Source of the DNA: Elusimicrobiales bacterium
Lineage (GTDB): Bacteria; Elusimicrobiota; Elusimicrobia; Elusimicrobiales; UBA9959
Assembly (NCBI GenBank): GCA_028713125.1
Contig: JAQTOU010000002.1
Coordinates: forward strand, 142,583-206,582
DNA length: 64,000 nt
Direction: 5' to 3'
Shown here: one piece after another, positions 6,805-62,605 of the stretch
Numbering within the stretch: position 1 is the first letter of the stretch
Layout of the letters: each line of letters opens with the position of its first letter
The notes under the pieces: generated by a model
The model's database searches: none
The model's input: the letters and a program-made list of their open reading frames with translations, nothing else
What the model was told of the DNA's origin: nothing
Made by a program: the position numbers and the translations under genes

Positions 6805-6820
6805 TAAAGGAAAAAGAAAA

Positions 6821-6866
6821 AGGGACAGGCTGCTTTTCCAGGTAAAAGCAGCCTGTCCCTTTTTTA
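6821..6866 (+). terminator. Rho-independent terminator
   Basis: AGGGACAGGCTGCTTTT (6821-6837) / AAAAGCAGCCTGTCCCT (6844-6860) form a perfect 17-bp stem with a 6-nt loop, followed by TTTTT. Confidence 0.85.
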
Positions 6867-20360: not shown

Positions 20361-21047
20361 TTATTTCGGGGCACCTTTAACGGGAGGATTTTTTTGCGCG
20401 CCTCCTTCGATGAGCGCGGCGAGTTCGAGGTACTTGCTTTGTCTCGCCACGTCGGCCGCGGTCTGCCCGGCCTTGTTGGTCTTGCCCGGGTTGACCCCGA
20501 ACTCCAGCATGTATTTTACCGTCGCGGTCCTGCCGCGGTTGGCGGCCATCATAAGCGCCGTATTGCCGTTGGTGTCCCTGAATTCCATGTTCGCCCCGCT
20601 TTCCGCCAGGGCTTTTACCACGTCGGTCCTGCCCTGCATCGCGGCCCACATCAGCGGGGGCCAGCCCAGCCGGTCCAGCGTTTCGGGCTTGGCTCCGATC
20701 GAGATAAGGTAGCGCACCGTGTCGAGGCGGCTCCAGCGCGCGGCTATATGGAGGGCGGTTTCGCCTTTGTAATTCCGGAGGTTTATGTCGGCGCCCCGGG
20801 AAACCAGCAGCTTCAGGGAGTCCAGATTGTCTTTTGCGGCGGCCCACATAAGCGGGGTCCAGCCGGCCTGGTCCCGGATGTCCGGGTTAAGGCCGGAGTC
20901 CAGCAGCTTGCGCATGTTCCGCTCATAGTCGTTCTTCGCGGACTTGAACATCCGCTCTTCCGGGCTGCCGATAGGTATTTCGCAGCCCGCGGTAAAGACC
21001 GCGGCCGCAAAAACCGCCAGGCTGAAGAAGTATCTTGATCGCCGCAT
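20361..21047 (-). CDS. Ankyrin-repeat lipoprotein
   Basis: Signal/lipobox FAAAVFTAGC, then about 5 ANK repeats (GWTPLMWAA.., GETALHIAA.., GWPPLMWAA.., GNTALMMAA..). Confidence 0.85.
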   Translation of the reverse strand: MRRSRYFFSLAVFAAAVFTAGCEIPIGSPEERMFKSAKNDYERNMRKLLDSGLNPDIRDQAGWTPLMWAAAKDNLDSLKLLVSRGADINLRNYKGETALHIAARWSRLDTVRYLISIGAKPETLDRLGWPPLMWAAMQGRTDVVKALAESGANMEFRDTNGNTALMMAANRGRTATVKYMLEFGVNPGKTNKAGQTAADVARQSKYLELAALIEGGAQKNPPVKGAPK

Positions 21048-22703: not shown

Positions 22704-22830
22704 GGGCGACGCGGGGGCAGGATAAGAAAAACCGTCGTTGAGCCTGCCGGTTGCATAGCCCGGCAGGCGAATACCGAGTGAGGCCACGGTGTGGCCGAAC
22801 GCGTTTTTCGTTCCTGCCCCCGCGCCGCCC
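22704..22830. repeat. Structured palindromic repeat, copy B (127 nt) in the sdhB-fumarate hydratase spacer
   Basis: Outer 19-bp inverted repeat (18/19), second helix GAAAAAC/GTTTTTC, and two inner hairpins (9 bp and 6 bp). Collinear sequence blocks are shared with 51291-51425. Confidence 0.75.
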
Positions 22831-26501: not shown

Positions 26502-29500
26502 ATGAACCGCATTATTTTTTCGCTTATCTTTTTCGCGCTGGCGTCCGTTTCTAACGCCTACGAAAAAATAGAATTTAAAGGCCAGATACTCAACCCCGCT
26601 TTCCTGAAGCCGGGCGCCCTGGCGGTGGCCAAGGGCAAGGTCTTCGTAGCCGACTCAAAGGCCAACGCCGTGTTCGTCTTCGACGGCGAGGGAAAATTCC
26701 TCAAGAAAATAGAGGGCGCCCTGAGGGAACCGATGTCGATCTCTTTCGGCGGCGGCAAGCTTTACGTAGCCGACACCGGCAACTCCCGCATAGTGGTTTT
26801 CGACACGGAAGGCAAGATGCTCTGGGCCTTTTCGAGCGAAGGCAACGCGCCCGGCCAGTTGAAGGCCCCCGCCGGCATAGCCTACGGGCCGGACGAGAGG
26901 GTCTACGTTTCCGATACGGACAATTCCCGGGTCGCCATTTTCAACTCCGACGGTATCTACCTCTACGGCTTCCCCGTGGCCAAGCAGGACGGCGTCACCA
27001 AGCTTAATCCCGCCAAGATCGTGCTCGACCGCACCGGCGATATTTTCATCTCCGACCCTGAGAAGACGACGGTCCAGAAGTATGACAGGACCGGCAAGCT
27101 GCTCAAGGAATACCAGATGGCCAACAATGGCCTGGCCACGGACAAGTACGGCTCTATTTACGCGATAAATTCCAAAGAGGGCAAGGTCAAGGAAGTTTCT
27201 CCTGCCGGCGAAGTTATCGGTACCTTCGGCACCAGGGGAAAAGGGAAGAGCGAATTCAAGAACCTGCGCGACATCGCTATAGACGAAGCCGGGCTGATCT
27301 ATCTCAGCGACGACGATAACAAGAAAGTCGTCATGATCAGGCTCGAGGGCGTCGAGACCGGGGAAGGGCTGCCCATGGCCTCCATCCTCGACCGGTTCAC
27401 CGTAAAGGGGCCCGTGTCCAAGGCCTCTTTCAAGGCCGACGTTTTCACCGTCACCCCGGACGGCAAGATAGTCGCTTACCTGCCGGAAGCCAAAGAGATC
27501 GCTCTTATCGACGGCGGCACCAAGAAGACGCTTATCAAGGAAGGCAAGCTGCAGGGGCAGGTCCGCCAGCCCCGCGGCATTTTCGTGGACGCCAAGGGCC
27601 TGATCTACGTGGCCGACACCGGCAACGACCGGGTCCAGATCTTCAAGGCGGACGGCTCCTTTGACAACATGTTCGGCGAGAGCGGTTCCGACGAGGGCCA
27701 GTTCAGGCAGCCGTCCTCCGTGGCGGTGAACAGCAAGGGCAATATTTTCGTGGCCGACACCAAGAACAAGAAGATAAAGGCGTTCAACGCCGACGGGATG
27801 TTCCTTTTCGCCACGGACCCGAGCATAGTGTTCGCCAACCCGGTCGCGGTGCGCTGCGACGAGAACAAGAACGTCTATGTTCTGGACTCCGTGCTTAAAA
27901 AAGTGATAGTCCTCAACGATATGGGCAAGTTCCTGCGCACCTGGGACGATTCCGGGAACCTGCAGGATCCCGCCTCCCTCGTCTACGACGGCAAGGGCTT
28001 CTTCTACATCCTGGACAAAGGCTCCTTTAACGTCAAGATCTTCGACGACGCCGGCGCTTTCACGGCCAGTTTCTTCGCCAAGGGCAAAGGCGAGCGCGAG
28101 CTCTGGGCTCCCCAGTCAATGGCTTTCCGCAACGACAAGATCTACATTTCCGACCCGGAGAACGTCCGGATCCAGGCCTTCAGCATCAGCTACCTGCCTC
28201 CGCCTCCCGTCGAATTGAAGGCCGAGGTAGGGGCGAAGAGCGTAAAGCTTTCCTGGAACGCCAAGAGCAACGCCTGGACGGGCGGGTTCAAGGTTTTCCG
28301 CGGCCTGGGCAAGGCCGACCCGGTAGAGATCGGCGGCGGAAAAGATAAAGCTTTCGAAGACACCGGGCTTACCGCCGAAGGCGTCTATTCCTATTACGTG
28401 GCCGGGCTGTCGGCCACGGGCGCGAAGGGCGGGCTTTCCGCCGCGGTAGAGGCCGACTTCAAGCTGCCGGAAGCTCCCAAAGCGGCGGCGGCGCCGGCGG
28501 CAGCGGCTTCCGAGGCCTCAGCGAACAAGAACGTCGCCCCGATGGAGATCCTGGCGCCGGACCTCAGCTACATCTTCTCCGCCAACTACAAGTATTACCA
28601 GAAGAACCCGGTCGGCAAGATCACGGTGAAGAACAACACCGACAGCGATTTCACCAACGTGAAACTGTCGTTCTTCTTCAAGGACTTCATGGACTTCCCG
28701 AGCGACACGATCGTGGAAGAGGTGAAAGCGCATTCGCAGACCGACGTGGCCCTGTCCGCCACGCTCAATAACCGGATACTCAATATCAACGAGGACACGC
28801 CCATCCAGTGCCAGCTCACGCTGACCTATTACCAGGACGGCGCCGAGAAGACCGCCACGCTGAACAAGCCCGTCAAAGTGCTTTCCAAGAACGCCATAGT
28901 GTGGGACAATTCGGCCAGGCTGGCAAACTTCATAACCATCAAGGACACCCCGATCATGGCTTTCAGGGCTTTCGCCCTGGGCGAGAAGAAGAAATTCGAA
29001 GCGGAAGCCGACCTGCTCGACGACAGCATCCTGACCGCGCTGATGTCGTGGGAGGCTTTGGGCGAATACGGTATTTCTTACCTGGCCGACCCCGCGAACC
29101 CCTACGCGACGATCAAGTCCACGGAGAACCTGGTGCTGGACACCGTGCAGTTCCCGCGCAATACGCTGCAGCTCAAGAGCGGCGACTGCGACGACCTTAC
29201 CGCGCTGTTCGCCAGCATATTCGAGGCTTCCGGCCTCCACGTGGCGCTGCTGGACTTCCCCGGCCACATAGCCCTGATGTTCGACACCGGCGAGACCGAC
29301 GCGAACGCGGTGGGCCTGCCCGAGGACTACCTGATAAAATACAACAATACCTGGTGGGTGGGCGTAGAGACCACAATGGTGGGCAAGAGCTTCCAGGATT
29401 CCATCCTGCACGTGGCCGACCTTTACAAGAAGATGGACAAGGACGTGAAGGTCATCGACGTAAGGGCCTCCTGGAACGAGTTCGAGCCGGTCACCCTGCC

Positions 29501-30601: not shown

Positions 30602-30620
30602 TTCCCGGTTCGTGGCAAAT

Positions 30621-30649
30621 AAAAAACCCCGCCCGGGCGGGGTTTTTTA
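30621..30649. terminator. Bidirectional Rho-independent terminator
   Basis: AAAAAA-CCCCGCCCGGGCGGGG-TTTTTT palindrome between convergent genes. Confidence 0.85.
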
Positions 30650-30666
30650 TTTGTCTTCGATAATTC

Positions 30667-48762: not shown

Positions 48763-49917
48763 TTAAGCCAGCCTCTTTTCGCTTTTGATCTTCTGTATGT
48801 CGGTTATGTCCTGTGTAACTTCCAGCGAACCCTGGTACTTCCCGTCTTCGCCCCGCAGCGCGAAGTAGCGGATATGTATCACCCTGCCTTTCATGTTTAT
48901 CCAGAACTCGGCGGAGTTCTTTGAACCGTCCCTGAAAGACTTTATGATCGTCTCTACCGCGCCCAGGCTCTGCGGCGGGTGGCAGTTCTGCACCTTGCGC
49001 CCTATGATGGCCCGCGCCCGCAGGAAGATCCTCTCCCTGCCCTCCGAGAAATAGCGCACCGTATCGTCCGCGTCCACGAAGGTCAGGTCCACCGGCAGGG
49101 CGTTGAGGAGCGAAGTCAGTTCCGGAAGGGAGAAATTCCCGCTGGGCAGGTTTATGGCCGCGCCGGATGGGGCGGCGGTGTTCTGGCTGATGTCCAGAGC
49201 TTCGGCCGAGGCGGCCGGCGGCTCGATGAAGATATAGCCTTCCCGGGCGCTCTGCCTGAAGATCTCGGCCCAGTCGGCCGGTTTAAGTTTTTCAAGGGAC
49301 GTGGGGAAAAGGATATTCTCTTCCTTGAAGATCATCCCGTCCACTTCCTCCAGCAGGGCCGCCGCGGCCGCGGGGAAATCTGCGGGTCCGGCCGCCATTG
49401 CTTTCTTGAAAAGTTCCCTCACTTCGTTATGCTTTCCCCACATTACCTTGGAGGGGCCCGAGAAGCCTGCCTTCTCGAGGAAGGGGAAGAGCATATGCTC
49501 TTTGCGCTCATAATGCTTTTCCACTCCGCGCAGCTCGATGATCAGGTTCTTTACCCAGTCCGCGCCTTTGCCTTCCTTGAGAGAAGGCAGCAGCGCTTTG
49601 GCGGCCTCGACGCGGCGCTTTATCTCGGCGTTCTCCGCCTTGAACAGGGCCACCGGGTGGGAAGGGTCGGACGGGTCCTGCATGGTCTTTTCAAGCGAGC
49701 TGCTGAACAGCAGGGCGTGGACATTGCAGAACTTCTTTATTTCCTCGGCCGGCACGCCGTCGTCCAGGAGCGACTGCTCCAGCTCGAAGATCTCCCTGGA
49801 GGTGACCGGCCCTATCTCGGCCTCGAACCGCTTCTTCGCCTCCTCCAGCGTCAGCCCCGCATGCAGCTGCGCGAGTATCTCTTTTAAAATTTTTTTCCTG
49901 TCAGGGTAGCCGCCCAT
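48763..49917 (-). CDS. DUF438-family protein with hemerythrin-like and PAS domains
   Basis: N-terminal DUF438-like region (ILAQLHAGLTLEEAKKRF), hemerythrin-like HxxxE segments (HYERKEHMLFPFLEK), C-terminal PAS-like region (DLTFVDADDTVRYFS...CHPPQS). Confidence 0.75.
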   Translation of the reverse strand: MGGYPDRKKILKEILAQLHAGLTLEEAKKRFEAEIGPVTSREIFELEQSLLDDGVPAEEIKKFCNVHALLFSSSLEKTMQDPSDPSHPVALFKAENAEIKRRVEAAKALLPSLKEGKGADWVKNLIIELRGVEKHYERKEHMLFPFLEKAGFSGPSKVMWGKHNEVRELFKKAMAAGPADFPAAAAALLEEVDGMIFKEENILFPTSLEKLKPADWAEIFRQSAREGYIFIEPPAASAEALDISQNTAAPSGAAINLPSGNFSLPELTSLLNALPVDLTFVDADDTVRYFSEGRERIFLRARAIIGRKVQNCHPPQSLGAVETIIKSFRDGSKNSAEFWINMKGRVIHIRYFALRGEDGKYQGSLEVTQDITDIQKIKSEKRLA

Positions 49918-50029: not shown

Positions 50030-51235
50030 ATGAGCGTGCTTTCTAAAATCCAGCTTGAAAAATACGCGGACACCCTTATCTGGGGGCTGACCACCGCCCG
50101 CCGCAACGCTTTCAAGAAATACGACAATATCCTGCTGCGCTGCGACCTCGAGGCCCGCGAGCTGGGCGAGATCGTCTACCGCAAGCTGGTCCAGCGCAAG
50201 TTCAACGTCACCTTCAATTTCCTGTCCAGCCCCGCCCTGGAGCGGAGTTTCTACGAATTCTCTGACGACAAGCAGCGCGCCTTCCTCCCGTCCTGGGACA
50301 AAGAGCTCTACAATAACCTCAACGGCTACGTGTTCATCCACGCCCCCGCTTCGCTGACCCACCTGAAGGGCATAGACACCAAAAGGCAGTCCCAGGTGGC
50401 CATCGCCCGCAAGCCGCTGTTCAGGATCCGCGACGAGCGCGAAGAAAAAGGCAAGTTCTCCTGGACCCTCTGCACCTACCCCACCGAGGAGCTGGCGAAG
50501 CAGGCCAAGCTCTCCGTTAAAGAATACGCCGCCCAGATAGCCAAAGCCTGCTACCTGAACGAGCCTAACCCCGCCAAAAAATGGGGTCAGATCTACAAAG
50601 ATACGATGCAGATAAAGAAGTGGATCAGCGGCCTCGGCATAGATACCATCCGCACCGAGTCCAAGTCCATGGACTTCGAAGTAAAGCTGGGCGAGCAGCG
50701 CAAGTTCCTCGGCGTCAGCGGCCACAATATCCCCAGCTTCGAGATCTTCACCTCGCCCGACTGGCGCGGGACCCGCGGCCGCTACTTCGCCAACCTCCCC
50801 GCTTTCCGCGGCGGCAATTACGTCGAGGAGATCAGCCTCGAATTCAAGGACGGCCGCGCCGTCAAGATCTCCGCCAAGAAAGGCGGAGAGTACGTAAAGA
50901 AGATAATGGCCACCGACAAGGGCGCCTCCCAGCTCGGCGAGTACTCCCTCACCGACCGCCGCTTCTCCCGCATCGACAAGTTCATGGCCGATACCCTGTT
51001 CGACGAGAACCATGGCGGCAAGCACGGCAACTGCCACGTCGCCATCGGCAATTCCTACACCGACACCTATACCGGCAATGTCGCCAAGCTCGACAAAGCG
51101 AAAAAAACCGCCCTCGGCTACAACGACTCCGCCGTACACTGGGACCTGATCAACACCGAAGATAAAAAAGTGACCGCCACCCTCAAGACCGGCAAAAAAG
51201 TCACCATCTACGAGAAAGGCCAGTTCAAATACTAA
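50030..51235 (+). CDS. M29-family aminopeptidase (AmpS/PepS-like)
   Basis: GGAGG RBS. LEKYADTLIWGL..., FDENHGGKHGNCHVAIGNSY and HWDLI are M29-like. Confidence 0.75.
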   Translation: MSVLSKIQLEKYADTLIWGLTTARRNAFKKYDNILLRCDLEARELGEIVYRKLVQRKFNVTFNFLSSPALERSFYEFSDDKQRAFLPSWDKELYNNLNGYVFIHAPASLTHLKGIDTKRQSQVAIARKPLFRIRDEREEKGKFSWTLCTYPTEELAKQAKLSVKEYAAQIAKACYLNEPNPAKKWGQIYKDTMQIKKWISGLGIDTIRTESKSMDFEVKLGEQRKFLGVSGHNIPSFEIFTSPDWRGTRGRYFANLPAFRGGNYVEEISLEFKDGRAVKISAKKGGEYVKKIMATDKGASQLGEYSLTDRRFSRIDKFMADTLFDENHGGKHGNCHVAIGNSYTDTYTGNVAKLDKAKKTALGYNDSAVHWDLINTEDKKVTATLKTGKKVTIYEKGQFKY

Positions 51236-51251
51236 GTCATCTTGTTCACCC

Positions 51252-51284
51252 AAAAAAGGCCTCCCAAACAGGGAGGCCTTTTTT
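51252..51284 (+). terminator. Rho-independent terminator
   Basis: AAAAAAGGCCTCCC-AAACA-GGGAGGCCTTTTTT. Confidence 0.9.
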
Positions 51285-51290
51285 CGTCTC

Positions 51291-51425
51291 CGGGGCCGCG
51301 GGGTGACAGGGTTAGCAAAACCCTCTCGGAGCCCGACGCTTGCGTAAGCGCGGAGGGCGAGAGCGGGAGTTGCGAGCACGGTGTGCGAGACAACGTTTTT
51401 GCGTTCCTGTCACCCCGCGGCCCCG
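51291..51425. repeat. Structured palindromic repeat, copy A (135 nt)
   Basis: Perfect 20-bp terminal inverted repeat CGGGGCCGCGGGGTGACAGG / CCTGTCACCCCGCGGCCCCG, second helix GCAAAA/TTTTGC, and inner hairpins. Collinear with 22704-22830. Confidence 0.8.
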
Positions 51426-51484
51426 TTGGATGACTAGAGACTATTCATTTGTGGCTCCCCGCCTTATTTGGGATAATACCTGTC

Positions 51485-52750
51485 ATGTCTACACTTCTCG
51501 CCGCGCTTAAAACCGAAAGAGGCCGCCACGTCGCCGGCGCAGTTTTCCTGGCCGGGCTCTCCGCGATGTTCCTCTTCTGCGGCTACGAGTTCATCCGCTC
51601 CCCGGCAGAATCCATCTTCATCGACCAGTTCGGCGCCGGCGCGAAACCCTACGCAATAGCCTGCGTCCCTTTCATGATGGCCGCGATGATCTACGGCTAC
51701 GGCCGGATGCTCTCCGCCGTCGGCGCGAAAAAGGCCATGGCCGTCTCCATGCTCTCCAGCGCCGCTTTCTTCCTGCTCGCCTGGGCGCTCCTCGGGCACG
51801 CCGGAAAATGGCTGGCCTTCCTCCTCCTCGTCTTCAAAGAATCCTACGTGGTGATAATTTCCGAGCAGTACTGGTCCTTCGTCAACAGCGTGCTGAAAGA
51901 CGAAGAAGGCAAAGTTTTCAACGGCCCCGTCGCGGGCCTCGGAGCGCTCGGCTCTCTCGTAGGCGGCTGGCTGCTCGGTCATTTCGCGGTGGGCCTCGGC
52001 ACGGAGCAGTTCGTCCTTTTCGCGGCCCTGATAATACTTCCGGCAGCCGCTTTCTTCTGGATCGGCTATAATAATGCCGGCGAGCCGAAGCCGTCGGCGG
52101 ACGAGGAGGGCGGCAAAAAAGGCCATCTGCACCTCAGCATCCTGAAAGAGAACCGCACCGTTCTGTTCATCGCTTTGATAATTTTCTGCGCGCAGGTCGT
52201 GGCCACCACGCTGGACTTCCGTTTCACCCAGCTCGTCCAGGACTTCATGCCGCTCAAGGACGAGCGCACCGCCTATCTCGGGCGCTTCTGGATGAACGTG
52301 AACATCTTCTCTTTCTCCATGCAGTTCCTGGCCACGCCCTTCCTGCTGCGCTATATCCCGCGGCGCGGCATACTCACGGCCATCCCGGCCGTGCACATCG
52401 TCACCTGCCTCCTGATCTTCGTGAACCCCACGCTTGGCCTGGCCTCCACGGCCTTCCTCCTGTTCAAAGGGATGGATTATTCCATCTTCCGGGCGTCCAA
52501 GGAAACTCTTTATATCCCTTTCTCCTACGACACCCGCTACCGCGCAAAGCAGATAGCCGACGCCTTTACCTACCGCTTCGCCAAAGGCCTCACGGCGATC
52601 TTCGCGTCCGGGCTCAAAGCCATGGGCTCGATAGTCCCGGGCTTCTACCCCGCTTTGGGCGCGGTCTTCTCCGCCGCCTGGCTGGCCATGTCCTTCCCGC
52701 TCACGGCAAAGCGCGAGGACGGCGTCATGCCCGTGAACACGAAAGCATGA
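51485..52750 (+). CDS. TLC (ATP/ADP-translocase-like) / MFS-type transporter
   Basis: ATG at 51485 (the track start at 51449 is a TTG). About 11-12 TM helices. YWSFVNSVLKDEEGKVFNGPVAGLGALGSLVGG resembles the FWSFAN....EEAKR.Y...G..G...G motif of nucleotide transporters. Confidence 0.5.
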   Translation: MSTLLAALKTERGRHVAGAVFLAGLSAMFLFCGYEFIRSPAESIFIDQFGAGAKPYAIACVPFMMAAMIYGYGRMLSAVGAKKAMAVSMLSSAAFFLLAWALLGHAGKWLAFLLLVFKESYVVIISEQYWSFVNSVLKDEEGKVFNGPVAGLGALGSLVGGWLLGHFAVGLGTEQFVLFAALIILPAAAFFWIGYNNAGEPKPSADEEGGKKGHLHLSILKENRTVLFIALIIFCAQVVATTLDFRFTQLVQDFMPLKDERTAYLGRFWMNVNIFSFSMQFLATPFLLRYIPRRGILTAIPAVHIVTCLLIFVNPTLGLASTAFLLFKGMDYSIFRASKETLYIPFSYDTRYRAKQIADAFTYRFAKGLTAIFASGLKAMGSIVPGFYPALGAVFSAAWLAMSFPLTAKREDGVMPVNTKA

Positions 52751-55037: not shown

Positions 55038-58000
55038 CTACCTTTCCACCGCCACCTTAAGGCTCTTCGACGATCTCTTGTCCTTCGACTGTATGAAAGC
55101 GATATAGATCCCGCTGGCCGTATTGCGGCCGTCCCTGTTAAGCCCGTCCCAGTGCGCCATGCCGTTGACGTCGGCCTTGATCTCGCGCACCAGCTCGCCG
55201 AGGAAAGTGTAGATCCTTACTTTGGCGAAGGGGGGCATATTGGTGAAATGCATCACGTCCGAGACGGAGTTGGGCCTGTAGGGGTTGGGATAGACCTTGA
55301 CGTCGGAAAGGCCGGCCTCCGGCGAAGCCTGCATCAGCTGGAAGGTGGATAAATGCCAGGTCTGGGCGATCACGCGGTTATTGGCGGTGTCGGACACGGA
55401 GGACAGCGGCACCCAGAGAGCGTTGGTCTCGTCGAAGAGCGCGAGGACGAGATTGGACCGGTCCGTGCCGGGCGGCAGGTCGGCTGCCCTGTAGGGCATG
55501 ATTATCGTTAAAGGCTTCAGCACCAGGGTAGGCGGGGAATGGTTTATGATCAGCCCTATGCCGGTAGGCGTAAGCCTGGCCACGGCCGAAAGAGGCGCCG
55601 CGAAAGCGGAGGTGGAAGGCTTCAGCGTGAGGACAGTGGAACTGCCGATCGAGCCGGGCGGCAGCTGTATCGAGATCCGGCCGTAAGAAGTTTCAAGGGA
55701 CACGATGGTGTCCTGCCCCGCCACCGCGTTCATTTTGGAGGAGATCACGGTCCGCGTCGAGCCGGCGCTGACATACGCAGAAACCAGGCCGCTCTGGCCC
55801 CGGGCCTGGACCTGGACCCAGTACTCGGCGTCTATCAGCAGGCTGGAAAAAGTGCAGGTCTCCGCCCTTACGGACTGCGAAGAGCTTATGAACGAAAAAT
55901 CGGAGTGCGTAGAGATCTGCACATTGTAGACCGTGAAAGAGGAATTCCCGTTAGGGGCCCAGTTGACCGAGAAGCCGTCCGTCATCAGGTTTGAAAAAGT
56001 CTGCTGGGCGGGCTGGATATAGGCGGTCGCGGGCAGGGTGAGGGCAGTGCCCATGGATACCGGCACGGCCGGAACCCCGGAGAGGTTGAGCGCTGAAACC
56101 TGCAGGTAGTAGCTGGCGTTGGAGACCAGGCCGTCGAAATAAGCGCTGAAGCTCTTGGTAACCGAAGAAAGCACCGTGCCTGAAAAATCGGAGCTGGACG
56201 AAACCTGCGCGCGGTACTGCGAGCCGGCCGGGTTGAAGGGGAAGATCGAGTCGGCCCAGTTCACGGTTACCGAAGAAACCCCGAGGCCGGAATAGGGCTG
56301 GACTTCCGGATCGTAGGCTCCGGTGGCCATCGAAGAGAATGTCATCACGGAGGCGGGGCGGTTAAGGCGGTTGTAAGGGGTCATTTCCGGGTAGTAGGTC
56401 GTATTAGGCAGCAGCCCGGAGAAGGATGCGTAGACGTTTTTCGTGGCGGAGGAGTATACCGGCGCGGAGAGGTCGGAGTTCGAGGAGATCCGCAGCAGGT
56501 ACAGCGTGTCGCTTGGGTTGGAGCTGGGCAGCCAGTTCAGGGTCAGGGTAAGCGGCGTGATCCCGGTATAGTCGGTCTGCAGCGGCTGGTTGGCCAGGGT
56601 TGCCGTAGCCGGGGTAAGCACATAATTTACGGCGCCTTCATGGTTCAGCGTCCCGGCCCGGAAGTAGTAGCTGGTATTAGGCTGCAGGCCGTTTATGGTA
56701 AGGCGGTCCAGGCCGATAATTGTCGTGTCCGAGGAGAGCAGCACCGGGCCGGGGAAGGACGGAGAGGTCGACGCCTCCAACAGGTAGCTCTCGGCCGAGG
56801 TGCTCTGGCCGCTGTTCGCGAGCGGCGTCCAGGCGACCGTTACGCTGGACTGGAAAACCCCCGGGACGTTAAGGCCGGTGAGGGGCAGGGGCAGGGTCTG
56901 TCTGAATTCGGGGGAGGAGATATTGTAGATGGTGGTTCCGTTATACAGCGCGCCCACCCTGAAGTAGTAGGTAGTGTTCGGGTCCAGCCCTTCTACCGAG
57001 AGGTTCGAGGCGGAGGGATCGGGGGTGGCCGAACTTTTGGCTATACTGTCGAAAAAACGGTACACGGAGGCTTCGGCCACGTGGCCCCCCGCGGCGATAC
57101 CGGGAGTGAAACTTAAAGCCGCGCTCGAGCTCCATATATTGTCCAGGGAAACCGCCGCCGGCGGGCCGGGGAAGCCGGTCTTCGTCGAGGGCAGGATAGT
57201 ATAGTTCGGCGTCTTTTCCCAGTTTAGGGTACCGAGGCGGAGGTAATAGGTGGTGTTCGCCGCAAGACCCCCGAGCGTAAGCGTCCTGAGCTGGTTCTGG
57301 TAGGTATAAGTGATGGAGGAGACCAGCGCTTCTCCGGGGCCGAAGGCGGAAGTCGAGGCGTCCAGCCTGTAGCCTTCGCAGGCGAAGGCCTGCCAGAAAT
57401 CCTGGAACGGAGTGAAGCTTACCGTTATTTCACGGGCGGCCGCGCTTATATAAGCCAGGTCGGGCGAAAGAGGCAGGGCCAGCGTGACCGAAGACAGCGT
57501 GGCCCCGTAATTAGCGGCGTAGGCGTTGTTTATCGAGGCGACCCTGAAATAATAGGTCGTGTTGGGGTCGAGCGTATTTATCGTCAGCGTGCTCAGATCC
57601 GTCCGGTAGGAAGTCGAGGACTGCGCGGTCGTGCCGGAGGTAAAGTTGCTGGTAGAGGCCTCAAGCCTGTAGCCCAGGGCAGTCCCGGCGGGAAAGGCCG
57701 TCCATCCCAGCGAGGCCATGTAGTCGGTCACGGAAATGCGCGACAGGCCCTGGGGTACCGCGGAGAGCGTGGTAAAGGAGCGCGGCGTGACCAGGTTAGG
57801 CGTGCCCGGCAGGTTAAGGGCCCCGGCCCTGTAATAGTAGGTCGTGTTCCTGATCAGGCCGGTGAGCGGAGTGGAAGACGTCGCCGCCGCCGCCGTGCTC
57901 CAGGCCGAAACAAGGGAGGTCAGGGACGGGTTATTGTAAAGGTTCAGGTTATAGCCCTTGGATTGGAGGGCCTGTATGGAGGCGTCGTTGATCGCAGTCC

Positions 58001-58679
58001 AGGAGACGGTGGCGCTGGTTTCATAGACGGCGTCGGAAAGGCCGGAGAGTTTTATAGCCAGGGTAGCGGTCGAGATCGAAGACGTGAAAGGAGTGAGGGT
58101 TCCGGAAACGCCGCGGGCCCTGACCTTGAAATAATAGGTGGTGTTGGCGTTCAGGCCGCCCACTATTATCGGTGGGTACCCGTTAAGCGAAGTGGAGGAG
58201 AGCGTAAAAGCGGCGCTCGTGGAATACTGCAGGTCGTACGAGGTCCATTCCGGGTTGGAGTTTGTGTCCCAGCCTATATTGGCCCCTGCCGTGAACGAGG
58301 ACTCGGCGGTGAAATAAGAGGAGATGGAGTAGAGCCCGCTCGGCGCGGCGACCCAGGTGGCGGTGGCCGGCAGGACCTGCGAATAAGCCAGGTCCGGCTC
58401 GGCGGTTATCTTCACTTTGAAATAATAAGTGGTGTTGGGGGCCAGGGACGGGTAGTTGGCAGTCGAAACGGCTATAGAGGCGCTGGAGACGAGCGTGGCG
58501 AACGAGGATGAAGTGGATAGTACGGCGGTATAATTCCCGCCGGGATTGGCCCAGCTGAAAGTGGCGCTCCCGGTGCTTGCCTGCGTAAGATAGGGCGTAA
58601 GGTTCGTGGCGCGCGCGGAAACAGCCGCTGCCAAAAGGCAGGCGGCGGCCGCGAGAAGCGTTTTCGCCTTATAAAACAT
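55038..58679 (-). CDS. Giant surface protein: about 10 FN3 domains plus a C-terminal T9SS-type/FlgD-Ig-like sorting domain
   Basis: Signal peptide MFYKAKTLLAAAACLLAAAVSA. Ten recurrences of (P/A)NT(T/S)YY(F/L)(K/R)V-type FN3 F-strand motifs. C-terminus VKVYPNPYRPN...VRIYTFLGELVREI...ASGIYIAFI. Confidence 0.85.
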   Translation of the reverse strand: MFYKAKTLLAAAACLLAAAVSARATNLTPYLTQASTGSATFSWANPGGNYTAVLSTSSSFATLVSSASIAVSTANYPSLAPNTTYYFKVKITAEPDLAYSQVLPATATWVAAPSGLYSISSYFTAESSFTAGANIGWDTNSNPEWTSYDLQYSTSAAFTLSSTSLNGYPPIIVGGLNANTTYYFKVRARGVSGTLTPFTSSISTATLAIKLSGLSDAVYETSATVSWTAINDASIQALQSKGYNLNLYNNPSLTSLVSAWSTAAAATSSTPLTGLIRNTTYYYRAGALNLPGTPNLVTPRSFTTLSAVPQGLSRISVTDYMASLGWTAFPAGTALGYRLEASTSNFTSGTTAQSSTSYRTDLSTLTINTLDPNTTYYFRVASINNAYAANYGATLSSVTLALPLSPDLAYISAAAREITVSFTPFQDFWQAFACEGYRLDASTSAFGPGEALVSSITYTYQNQLRTLTLGGLAANTTYYLRLGTLNWEKTPNYTILPSTKTGFPGPPAAVSLDNIWSSSAALSFTPGIAAGGHVAEASVYRFFDSIAKSSATPDPSASNLSVEGLDPNTTYYFRVGALYNGTTIYNISSPEFRQTLPLPLTGLNVPGVFQSSVTVAWTPLANSGQSTSAESYLLEASTSPSFPGPVLLSSDTTIIGLDRLTINGLQPNTSYYFRAGTLNHEGAVNYVLTPATATLANQPLQTDYTGITPLTLTLNWLPSSNPSDTLYLLRISSNSDLSAPVYSSATKNVYASFSGLLPNTTYYPEMTPYNRLNRPASVMTFSSMATGAYDPEVQPYSGLGVSSVTVNWADSIFPFNPAGSQYRAQVSSSSDFSGTVLSSVTKSFSAYFDGLVSNASYYLQVSALNLSGVPAVPVSMGTALTLPATAYIQPAQQTFSNLMTDGFSVNWAPNGNSSFTVYNVQISTHSDFSFISSSQSVRAETCTFSSLLIDAEYWVQVQARGQSGLVSAYVSAGSTRTVISSKMNAVAGQDTIVSLETSYGRISIQLPPGSIGSSTVLTLKPSTSAFAAPLSAVARLTPTGIGLIINHSPPTLVLKPLTIIMPYRAADLPPGTDRSNLVLALFDETNALWVPLSSVSDTANNRVIAQTWHLSTFQLMQASPEAGLSDVKVYPNPYRPNSVSDVMHFTNMPPFAKVRIYTFLGELVREIKADVNGMAHWDGLNRDGRNTASGIYIAFIQSKDKRSSKSLKVAVER

Positions 58680-62557: not shown

Positions 62558-62573
62558 ACGGCCGCGCAGAAAT

Positions 62574-62605
62574 AAAAAACCCCGGGGCGGCCCGGGGTTT
62601 TTTTA
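62574..62605. terminator. Bidirectional Rho-independent terminator
   Basis: AAAAAA-CCCCGGG-GCGG-CCCGGGG-TTTTTTT between convergent genes. Confidence 0.85.

What the first reader, a model, noticed from the sequence alone, without database searches (positions are those of the whole stretch)
51291..51425. 135-nt element with a perfect 20-bp terminal inverted repeat; member of a two-copy structured repeat family
The sequence shows CGGGGCCGCGGGGTGACAGG (51291-51310) and its exact reverse complement (51406-51425). There is a second helix GCAAAA (51315-51320) / TTTTGC (51397-51402) and inner stem-loops (e.g. CGCTT-GCGT-AAGCG, 51337-51350). It shares blocks with 22704-22830 on the same strand, in the same order and with spacings within 5 nt: CGCGGGG (51297 / 22710), TTGCRTA (51340 / 22751), CACGGTGTG (51377 / 22785), CGTTTTT (51394 / 22802), CGTTCCTG (51402 / 22809) and CCCCGCG (51413 / 22818). 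Where the helix sequences differ between copies, both arms differ so that pairing is kept. Both copies are in the + orientation but their host genes are on opposite strands. That argues for an orientation-independent dispersed element (MITE/ERIC/Correia-like) or a structured RNA/DNA module, rather than a gene-specific leader. This copy sits just after the aminopeptidase terminator and 60 nt upstream of the TLC-like transporter start.
Basis: seen in the sequence. Interest (0 to 1): 0.65.

Follow-up and report, generated by a model that had tools for sequence, protein, structure and literature searches.

The report
Structured interspersed repeat family of Elusimicrobia
The 135-base hairpin is one copy of an apparently undescribed family of non-coding repeats, found in about 200 copies and only in Elusimicrobia genomes, whose single strand folds into a conserved three-armed structure; it is not a regulator of the neighbouring transporter gene.

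Summary
Window 51291-51425 has a perfect 20-bp closing stem, and 22704-22830 is a true second copy.

It is not a two-copy curiosity. A 22-base motif found 53 loci, all in Elusimicrobia or unlabelled MAGs. A covariance model then found 73 copies there and 128 more in metagenome contigs.

The element-sense strand folds into a closing stem P1, a helix P2 and a three-way junction. The junction carries two hairpins with near-invariant loops (UUGCRUAAGC and CACGGUGUG). Across 73 copies, 46 of 52 pairs show changes on both sides, and 90% of cells pair against 39-47% in slid controls. G.U pairs far outnumber A.C.

Copies are intergenic and show no orientation preference towards flanking genes. They have no target-site duplication and no linked protein gene. 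They are present or absent at syntenic loci, and assemblies often break inside them. Of 29 close pairs, 28 are head-to-head.

Rfam, plasmid, phage and viral collections and the literature searches gave nothing.

Best reading: a non-autonomous repeat family with REPIN/BIME-like organisation but large, complex units, probably spread through a folded single strand. A dispersed functional RNA module is not excluded.

The parts
51291..51425 (+). Copy A of the repeat family (subtype A), a complete unit
   Evidence: Covariance model R1 scores 153 bits, E = 2.6e-34, on the + strand only. Fold energy is -95 kcal/mol, z = -8.9.
51291..51310 (+). P1 5' arm, a 20-nt closing stem that pairs with 51406-51425
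   Evidence: Exact reverse complement. All 19 P1 pairs show changes on both sides across 73 copies.
51406..51425 (+). P1 3' arm
51315..51320 (+). P2 5' strand GCAAAA, pairing with TTTTGC at 51397-51402. The loop GUUA/GUU separates P1 from P2.
   Evidence: In subtype D, P2 becomes GGCGGGC/GCCCGCC.
51397..51402 (+). P2 3' strand TTTTGC
51321..51367 (+). P3 (CCCTCTC at 51321-51327 with GAGA..GGG at 51359-51367) enclosing hairpin P4. P4 is 51331-51339 paired with 51350-51358, contains a tandem G.A, and has the loop UUGCGUAAGC at 51340-51349.
   Evidence: The loop UUGCnUnAGC is at least 90% conserved in 73 copies.
51369..51394 (+). Hairpin P5, with invariant CAC-GGU-GUG at 51377-51385 and a tandem G.A
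   Evidence: The pairs C-G, A-U, C-G are invariant in 73 of 73 copies, and the lower stem covaries.
22704..22830 (+). Copy B (subtype B core). It lies between the frdB/sdhB stop and the class I fumarase start and is antisense to that operon.
   Evidence: R1 scores 91.9 bits on the + strand. Orthologous copies occupy the same site in L023, L069, L070-72 and L073-75.
51258..51284 (+). Intrinsic-terminator hairpin of the M29 peptidase gene (GGCCTCCC-AAACA-GGGAGGCC followed by T6). It is a neighbour, not part of the element.
   Evidence: Read from the sequence. Its only Rfam look-alikes are the terminator parts of leader models. A hairpin with a T-run lies at the same position in the orthologous locus L067.
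51485..52750 (+). MFS/TLC-like transporter gene downstream of copy A (context only)
   Evidence: Pfam hits to TLC and MFS_1. An identical protein is on Logan contig L054, which breaks inside the element.

Best explanation
The element is one copy of a lineage-specific family of non-coding, non-autonomous interspersed repeats in Elusimicrobiales genomes.

Structure (shown). Each unit is about 135-165 nt. On one defined strand it folds into a roughly 20-24-bp closing stem (P1), a second helix (P2) and a three-way junction. The junction carries two hairpins with near-invariant loops, UUGCRUA(A)GC and CAC-GGU-GUG, and tandem G.A pairs.

Behaviour (shown). Units have spread into intergenic DNA regardless of gene orientation. 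They persist vertically for long periods, are gained and lost between related species, and frequently sit head-to-head next to another unit.

Mechanism (inferred). The fold is conserved because the machinery that copies the element recognises the folded single strand. This would most probably be single-stranded DNA, handled by a trans-encoded, structure-specific enzyme of the HUH/Y1 type, as for REP/REPIN-RAYT or IS200/IS605. The conserved loops would be the recognition sites and P1 a generic clamp.

At this locus (inferred). Copy A is an old insertion between the M29 peptidase terminator and the MFS/TLC-like gene. It probably has no dedicated regulatory role, beyond adding a very stable hairpin to any transcript that crosses it.
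For: Family size and range.
- 53 exact-motif loci were found, all in Elusimicrobia or unlabelled MAGs.
- The model found 73 copies in those loci and 128 more in 100 metagenome loci.
- 12 copies lie in the fetched parts of one MAG.

Repeat behaviour.
- 17 of the 128 metagenome copies are cut by contig ends. Logan contigs L054 and L069 break inside the element.
- Copy A is present in L067/L068 but absent in L061/L062, where the M29-MFS gap is 6 nt. It is also absent in L055, L058, L060 and L063.
- A second unit was gained 9 nt from the frdB copy in L073-75 only.
- Truncated and hybrid copies occur.

Not a leader.
- Orientation towards flanking genes is random.
- Copy B and its orthologues are antisense within an operon.

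Structure under constraint on one strand.
- 46 of 52 pairs changed on both sides; 89.9% of cells pair against 39-47% when slid.
- Counts were G.U 149 and A.C 39, with 25 of the A.C in one column that I judge misaligned.
- The reverse strand scores 15-29 bits against 75-160 bits for the sense strand.

No self-encoded machinery and no DDE signature.
- No recurrent neighbouring protein appeared within 3 kb of about 200 copies, apart from generic ABC ATPases.
- Flanking direct repeats equal the shuffled control.

REPIN/BIME-like doublets.
- 28 of 29 close pairs are divergent, with spacers mostly 5-51 nt. That is too short, sometimes overlapping, for two promoters.

Not known.
- Rfam gave nothing. 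Plasmid, phage and viral searches gave nothing. The literature searches I ran gave nothing.
Against: - No transposase, RAYT or reverse transcriptase has been linked to the family. Whole genomes could not be searched.
- No clean empty site from a near-identical strain was found, so exact element boundaries and active mobility are not shown.
- Local GC skew shows no replication-strand bias (17 against 27). That is not what IS200/IS605-type elements usually show, although 8-kb skews are noisy.
- Within-genome copies are only modestly more alike than between-genome copies (0.82 against 0.77, and 0.91 against 0.87). Recent bursts are therefore not evident.
- The strong cross-species conservation of the loops fits a host-selected functional RNA equally well.
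- Sequence alone cannot separate RNA from single-stranded DNA folding. G.T and sheared G.A pairs are tolerated in both.
Confidence: 0.6

Rival explanations
1. It is a dispersed functional RNA module. Each copy would be transcribed and act as RNA, for example as a protein-binding or scaffold RNA, a new self-cleaving ribozyme class, or a stability or processing element whose roughly 21-bp P1 is an RNase III site. The host would maintain it by selection.
For: - Covariation is found in every helix.
- Loops and junction nucleotides are near-invariant across species.
- Tandem G.A motifs and the G.U over A.C asymmetry are typical of RNA.
- P1 is free in sequence but constrained to pair, as in ribozymes and riboswitch aptamers.
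- Copies are retained at orthologous sites across species with 88-92% FrdB identity.
- Hairpins are gained or lost in a modular way (L013, L015, L030, L031).
Against: - In co-directional gene pairs the element is sense 14 times and antisense 16 times.
- Copy B and its orthologues sit 7-8 nt after a stop codon, antisense inside an operon, with no room for a promoter. They still keep G.T pairs on the element-sense strand.
- Doublet spacers of -6 to 51 nt cannot hold two divergent promoters.
- No conserved promoter or terminator flanks the window-type copies.
- The P1/P2 internal loop is dispensable in L073.
- No Rfam ribozyme or RNA family matches.
Confidence: 0.27
2. It is a gene-specific 5' leader or riboswitch controlling the MFS/TLC-like transporter.
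For: - Copy A lies in the sense orientation 59 nt upstream of the start codon.
- Several subtype-A copies lie 20-30 nt upstream of an ATG.
- The copy is retained in L067/L068.
Against: - MFS orthologues at 84-90% identity lack it.
- In L061/L062 the M29-MFS gap is 6 nt.
- The same element occurs next to unrelated genes in either orientation.
- Copy B is antisense to its operon.
Confidence: 0.03
3. It is a classical DDE-type MITE (Correia, ERIC or Nezha-like), mobilised as double-stranded DNA through its terminal inverted repeats.
For: - It has a terminal inverted repeat, a small size and no ORF.
- It is multi-copy and intergenic.
Against: - There is no target-site duplication.
- In the window's class the terminal arms are the least conserved part: P1 identity 0.58 against 0.77-0.82 for the interior.
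- The pairing is strand-asymmetric.
- No transposase with matching ends lies within 3 kb of about 200 copies.
Confidence: 0.07
4. It is a single-strand recombination site of the integron attC kind.
For: - It is a structured, strand-specific imperfect palindrome of attC-like length.
- GTTGGAT, which fits GTTRRRY, follows copy A.
Against: - There is no matching RYYYAAC on the 5' side.
- The GTTRRRY-like flank is not seen in the other copies.
- Internal sequence is highly conserved, unlike attC.
- Copies are scattered between housekeeping genes rather than in cassette arrays.
Confidence: 0.02

Closest known systems
REP / BIME / REPIN elements of Proteobacteria (mobilised by RAYT, a Y1 HUH transposase). 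The comparison rests on my own knowledge of the family.
   Same: - Extragenic, non-coding, multi-copy, with no target-site duplication.
- The fold is preserved by paired changes.
- Units commonly form inverted doublets with short spacers, 28 of 29 here.
- Long vertical persistence with occasional gain.
- Often sit between genes of an operon, as copy B does.
- A GGUAGG motif is conserved in an internal loop of the 'frame' class, reminiscent of the REP GTAG.
   Different: - Units are 135-165 nt with a three-way junction and two conserved hairpin loops, not a 20-40-nt simple palindrome.
- The two units of a doublet are usually different subtypes.
- The window copies lack the GUAG loop.
- No RAYT has been linked to the family.
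- The host phylum is different.
IS200/IS605-derived palindrome-associated elements (PATEs)
   Same: - No target-site duplication.
- Strand-specific folded structures.
- Non-autonomous copies without an ORF.
   Different: - Those elements have two small subterminal hairpins in direct orientation and a defined target tetra- or pentanucleotide.
- No TnpA or TnpB was found near about 200 copies.
- No replication-strand bias was detected.
ERIC/IRU, Correia (NEMIS), BOX and RUP repeats
   Same: - Imperfect palindromes of roughly 100-150 bp in intergenic or transcribed DNA, in either orientation.
- Able to form stable RNA hairpins.
- BOX elements are also modular.
   Different: - No match to any family in Rfam 15 at E <= 10 over copy A or E <= 1 over six other loci.
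- Correia elements make a TA duplication and have conserved terminal repeats. Here there is no duplication, and in the window's class the terminal arms vary.
- Those families are not reported, to my knowledge, to have covarying multi-helix junctions with invariant loops.
Multi-copy self-cleaving ribozyme classes (hammerhead, twister, twister-sister, pistol, hatchet)
   Same: - Many copies per genome with no fixed gene association.
- A variable closing stem around a conserved junction and loops.
- Copies often occur near one another.
   Different: - No match to any Rfam ribozyme model, even at permissive E-values.
- The P1/P2 internal loop is not conserved.
- Cleavage has not been tested.

Membership tests
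Any Rfam 15 RNA family | Score at or above the family gathering threshold, or a credible sub-threshold match over the element | tested here: not met
   There were 0 gathering hits in the window. At E <= 10 over 51200-51520, the matches were terminator look-alikes just upstream and two miRNA hairpin models at 20 bits over the element, against gathering scores of 58 and 168. Nothing fell on elements of subtypes A-E in six loci at E <= 1.
MITE (DDE transposon derivative) | Target-site duplication flanking each copy | tested here: not met
   The distribution of direct-repeat lengths at the P1 boundaries of 178 copies equals the shuffled-partner control.
MITE (DDE transposon derivative) | Terminal inverted repeats conserved among copies, as the transposase binding sites | tested here: not met
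   In subtype A, P1 identity between copies is 0.58-0.59 against 0.77-0.82 for the interior. The outer arms are locus-specific. In the 'frame' class the arms are conserved.
MITE (DDE transposon derivative) | An autonomous partner with the same ends that encodes a transposase | tested here: inconclusive
   No recurrent protein was found within 2.5-3 kb of about 200 copies. Whole genomes could not be searched.
REP/BIME/REPIN | Extragenic, multi-copy, orientation-independent | tested here: met
REP/BIME/REPIN | Unit is a short (about 20-40 nt) imperfect palindrome | tested here: not met
   Units are 135-165 nt with five helices and a three-way junction.
REP/BIME/REPIN | Units paired in inverted orientation with a short spacer | tested here: met
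   There are 28 divergent, 0 convergent and 1 tandem close pairs. The two window copies are singletons.
REP/BIME/REPIN | Cognate RAYT (Y1 HUH) gene in the same genome, often flanked by units | not testable with these tools
   Only 8-15-kb pieces around copies were available. None held a recurrent candidate.
REP/BIME/REPIN | Conserved GTAG next to the hairpin | tested here: inconclusive
   GGUAGG is conserved in the P1 internal loop of the 'frame' class. It is absent from copy A and copy B of the window.
Riboswitch or gene-specific leader | Sense orientation in the 5' UTR of a consistent gene set, conserved at orthologous genes | tested here: not met
   Orientation is random. The element is absent upstream of most MFS orthologues. 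Copy B is antisense within an operon.
Integron attC site | R''/R' core sites (RYYYAAC ... GTTRRRY), variable interior, location in cassette arrays | tested here: not met
   Only a GTTGGAT-like 3' flank at copy A. There is no 5' partner, the interior is highly conserved, and copies are scattered among housekeeping genes.
IS200/IS605 PATE | No duplication, strand-specific hairpins, TnpA/TnpB in the genome, orientation tied to replication | tested here: inconclusive
   There is no duplication and there is strand asymmetry. However, no transposase lies nearby and no skew bias is seen.

The most novel reading that the evidence does not exclude
The family is a new kind of structured nucleic-acid element. 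One possibility is a 'giant REPIN', whose 140-nt three-way-junction unit is the substrate of an unrecognised single-strand-specific mobilising enzyme. The other is a new class of functional RNA (a ribozyme or a protein-recruiting scaffold) that spreads through Elusimicrobia genomes. In either case it uses an interchangeable 'frame plus 3' tail' chassis (GGAGGGG / GGCGG-AGA ... UAGG-CCCC-GACUnnGCAUCUCGCGG) that also hosts an unrelated structured core (type E).
Probability: 0.3. Interest if true: 0.78.

Novelty: new variant of a known kind. Interest (0 to 1): 0.55.

Why it matters
- It adds a large, well-supported structured element family, with covariation in all five helices, to a phylum known almost only from metagenomes. 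The family is absent from Rfam.
- If the fold is a mobilisation signal, single-strand-recognising repeat systems of the REPIN type exist far outside Proteobacteria and can use complex multi-helix substrates.
- If the fold is a functional RNA, it is a new candidate class with hundreds of natural variants ready for structure probing.
- In practice, the element breaks short-read assemblies of these genomes. It also creates spurious ORFs in annotation: stop-to-stop reading frames overlapping the units formed the two largest ORF clusters.

Tried and rejected
- Rfam at gathering and permissive thresholds gave only terminator look-alikes and weak miRNA hairpin models.
- Literature searches for Elusimicrobia with structured RNA, ncRNA, MITE or repetitive element found nothing relevant.
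- Riboswitch or leader for the MFS gene: rejected by absence at orthologous genes and by random orientation.
- Independent sRNA gene with its own promoter. I first noticed -10-like boxes upstream of subtype B. They lie in the short spacer of head-to-head doublets, which can be as short as -6 to 9 nt, so two promoters do not fit.
- Outward promoter in the 3' tail plus TATAAA region. The -35/-10 spacing varies from 12 to 19 nt by my reading of the flanks, so this was not pursued.
- Linked protein gene. ORF clustering gave only ORFs overlapping the element and ABC ATPases. The 1.2-kb stretch between two inverted units in L037 holds an ORF with a signal-peptide-like N-terminus and no Pfam hit, not a transposase.
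- Insertion into terminator loops. No T-run follows P1.
- Loop-loop pairing between the P4 and P5 loops. By inspection there is no complementarity and no correlated change.
- Canonical k-turn at the tandem G.A sites. The bulge geometry does not fit by inspection.
- Empty-site search in metagenomes with joined flanks of copy A gave 0 hits.
- Replication-strand bias was not significant.
- Viral, plasmid and phage collections gave no copies.
- A first attempt to look up the M29 protein contig failed because the exact product is not on record.

Full report
**1. The observation**

The sequence is as described. Window 51291-51310 (CGGGGCCGCGGGGTGACAGG) is the exact reverse complement of 51406-51425. 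All six blocks shared with 22704-22830 sit at the stated coordinates.

This is not chance.
- Only two other perfect local inverted repeats of 16 bp or more exist in the 64 kb. Both are short-loop hairpins.
- Copy A folds at -95 kcal/mol (z = -8.9) and copy B at -86.9 kcal/mol (z = -7.2).

The context is also as stated.
- The M29 aminopeptidase gene ends at 51235.
- A terminator hairpin lies at 51258-51284.
- The element spans 51291-51425.
- The ATG of an MFS/TLC-like transporter is at 51485.
- Copy B lies between frdB/sdhB and a class I fumarase gene, both on the minus strand.

**2. It is a large family, not a two-copy curiosity**

Recovery of copies:
- A 22-base motif from the shared 3' half (CACGGTGTG-N6-10-GTTTTT-N0-3-GTTCCTG) was scanned over one genome per species for 185,579 species. 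It found 53 loci, all in MAGs labelled Elusimicrobia, Elusimicrobiales or Elusimicrobiaceae, or in unlabelled 'bacterium' MAGs.
- A covariance model built from 22 subtype-A copies found 73 sense-strand copies in those loci, the window and three orthologous loci.
The model found 128 further copies in the first 100 of these loci.
- The window itself holds only the two copies.

Negative searches:
- Rfam 15 gave nothing at gathering or permissive thresholds.
- Plasmid, phage and viral collections gave nothing.
- Four literature searches gave nothing relevant.

**3. Anatomy**

All copies share one architecture on one strand:
- P1, a long closing stem with a median length of 21 bp.
- An internal loop.
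- P2 (GCAAAA/UUUUGC in copy A).
- A three-way junction with two arms. One is P3 stacked on hairpin P4, whose loop is UUGCRUA(A)GC. The other is hairpin P5, with CAC-GGU-GUG invariant in 73 of 73 copies.
- Tandem G.A pairs in P4 and P5.

Covariation across the 73 copies:
- 89.9% of cells form standard pairs, against 39-47% when the 3' partners are slid by 1-3 columns.
- 46 of 52 pairs show changes on both sides.
- None of 500 shuffles reached any of the five observed measures.
- The alignment is fitted to the model. However, the hand-drawn structure on a plain MAFFT alignment of 22 copies gave the same picture: 90% paired and 30 of 52 pairs.

Strand specificity:
- The fold belongs to the element-sense strand. 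G.U pairs number 149 and A.C pairs 39, with 25 of the A.C in one column that I judge misaligned.
- The reverse strand of the same loci scores 15-29 bits, against 75-160 bits for the sense strand.

Subtypes and modularity:
- At least four subtypes exist (A-D). They differ in the P1/P2 loop and in P2. In subtype D, P2 is GGCGGGC/GCCCGCC.
- Some copies carry an extra hairpin or lack one.

The 'frame' class:
- Many copies sit in a conserved frame: GGAGGGG or GGCGG, then AGA, then CCGYRGGG ... CCCYRCGG, then UAGG, then CCCC or CCGCC.
- This frame is often followed by a 3' tail, GACUnnGCAUCUCGCGG.
- The same frame and tail also enclose an unrelated structured core, here called type E.
- The window copies belong to the class without this frame. 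Their outer P1 is locus-specific.

**4. Behaviour in genomes**

- *Position and orientation.* Copies lie between genes and show no orientation preference. Counts for upstream/downstream gene relative to the element were opp/opp 16, same/same 14, same/opp 14 and opp/same 10.
- *No linked gene.* No protein gene recurs within 2.5-3 kb of about 200 copies, apart from ORFs overlapping the element and generic ABC ATPases.
- *No duplication.* There is no target-site duplication.
- *Assembly breaks.* Assemblies break in the element. 17 of 128 metagenome copies are cut by contig ends. The Logan contig carrying the identical MFS gene starts inside copy A, at CACGGTGTG. Another Logan contig ends inside the frdB copy.
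- *Doublets.* Close pairs are almost always head-to-head: 28 divergent, 0 convergent and 1 tandem. Spacers run from -6 to 51 nt, with one of 199 nt. The partners are usually of different subtypes.
- *Similarity between copies.* Copies in one genome are only slightly more alike than copies in different genomes. Interior identity is 0.82 against 0.77 for subtype A and 0.91 against 0.87 for subtype B. In subtype A, P1 is far more variable than the interior, at 0.58-0.59.

**5. History of the two window loci**

*Copy A.*
- An orthologous copy sits in the same M29-MFS gap in L067/L068, where the MFS protein is 90% identical.
- That copy has nearly the same P1: 5 of 20 positions differ, and one pair is compensated.
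- Its interior differs by many compensated changes in P3, P4 and P5.
- Relatives with 84-90% identical MFS lack the element. In L061/L062 the M29 stop and the MFS start are 6 nt apart.
- The element is therefore an insertion shared by some species. It is not a conserved leader.

*Copy B.*
- Orthologous copies lie 7-8 nt after the frdB stop codon, antisense to the frdAB-fumarase operon. They occur in the window, L023, L069, L070-72 and L073-75.
- Each has a different outer P1 (GGGCG, GCTGGTG, GGGTACG ...). Each still pairs, including G.T pairs on the element-sense strand.
- L073-75 gained a second unit head-to-head, 9 nt away. In that unit P1 and P2 form one continuous helix, so the internal loop is dispensable.

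**6. Interpretation**

*Shown.* This is a lineage-specific family of non-coding, non-autonomous interspersed repeats with a strongly constrained, strand-specific fold.

*Inferred mechanism.* The constraint probably acts on the step that copies the element rather than on a local RNA function. The arguments are:
- Orientation is unrelated to local transcription.
- Copy B and its orthologues are antisense inside an operon, with no room for a promoter.
- Doublet spacers are too short for two promoters.
- There is no duplication and no cis-encoded enzyme.

These features resemble REP/REPIN-RAYT and IS200/IS605 systems, in which an HUH/Y1 enzyme recognises hairpins in single-stranded DNA. The head-to-head doublets echo BIME and REPIN organisation.

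I put 0.6 on 'non-autonomous repeat family whose fold serves its own propagation'. The specific enzyme class is a guess.

*Origin of the paired outer P1 arms.* They could arise by ordinary compensatory change or by template-switch repair within the hairpin. This was not resolved.

*Main rival (0.27).* A dispersed functional RNA, such as a ribozyme, a protein-binding scaffold, or a processing or stability module. The invariant loops, the G.A motifs and the long retention at orthologous sites fit this equally well. Sequence alone cannot separate RNA from single-stranded DNA.

*Minor rivals.* A gene-specific leader, a classical DDE MITE and an attC site are each contradicted by tested features (see the membership table).

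**7. Comparison with known families and novelty**

By organisation the family works like REP/BIME/REPIN. It fails the defining feature of a short simple palindrome, and its enzyme is unknown, so I do not file it as a member.

It has no match in Rfam and none in the plasmid, phage and viral collections searched.

I rate it a new variant of a known kind (bacterial extragenic repeats), with interest 0.55. The evidence for structure is unusually strong and the chassis-plus-core modularity is odd. Against that, lineage-specific repeat families are common, and no function or mobilising enzyme has been shown.

Noticed in passing
L010:2420-2565 (+), L014:5640-5795 (+), L045:3937-4140 (-): A different structured element ('type E', GC-rich, about 150 nt, MFE -112 to -131 kcal/mol over the 211-266-nt stretches folded). 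It sits in the same outer frame (GGAGGGG ... GGCCCC) and has the same 3' tail GACUnnGCAUCUCGCGG. It forms the head-to-head partner of a unit of the main family. The R1 model does not detect it.
   Followed up: partly
17 of the first 75 loci, e.g. L007:7277-7295, L024:467-485, L035:1066-1084; absent from the window: A conserved 3' tail motif, CCGACTnnGCWTCTCGCGG, follows many 'frame'-class units, sometimes 30-60 nt downstream. By eye it is often followed about 10 nt later by a TATAAA-like A/T-rich stretch. Its role is unknown.
   Followed up: partly
window 6817-6864: A perfect 21-bp inverted repeat with a 6-nt loop. It is the longest perfect local hairpin in the window and is unrelated to the family. 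It may be a terminator.
   Followed up: no
window 30618-30652 and 62570-62604: Two similar A-run / GC-hairpin / T-run sequences (AATAAAAAACCCCG...CGGGGTTTTTTATT). They look like bidirectional intrinsic terminators and are 74% complementary to each other.
   Followed up: no
window 56088-58446: Seven or more diverged direct repeats with a period of about 285-300 nt. The pattern suggests a long gene encoding tandem repeat domains.
   Followed up: no
window 26634-27797: Five diverged 60-nt repeat units at multiples of about 120-141 nt (GGCAAG.TTTACGTAGCCGACAC...). The pattern suggests a gene for a repeat-domain (beta-propeller-like) protein.
   Followed up: no
L036, L039, L098, L011, L006, L021 and 8 other loci: ABC-transporter ATPase genes (MacB-like, or ABC_membrane plus ABC_tran) are the only recurrent neighbours of the element: 14 loci, median distance 63 nt. 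This may only reflect how abundant that family is.
   Followed up: partly
window 51485-52750 and homologues P0001-P0120: The MFS/TLC-like protein downstream of copy A belongs to a family conserved at 55-92% identity in Elusimicrobia assemblies and metagenomes. Several sources name it ATP/ADP translocase. It is often next to a PorV-like gene and a large fibronectin-type-III repeat protein gene.
   Followed up: no
window 20361-21047 (-) and 48763-49917 (-): An ankyrin-repeat protein lies directly downstream of the fumarase gene. A DUF438-hemerythrin-PAS protein lies upstream of the M29 peptidase gene.
   Followed up: no
L030:6960-7066 (-), L052:7390-7430, L035:690-777: Truncated or hybrid pieces of units lie directly beside intact units: the 3' half of type E fused after a subtype-B unit, and isolated P1 3' arms. 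This suggests nested insertion or recombination between copies.
   Followed up: partly
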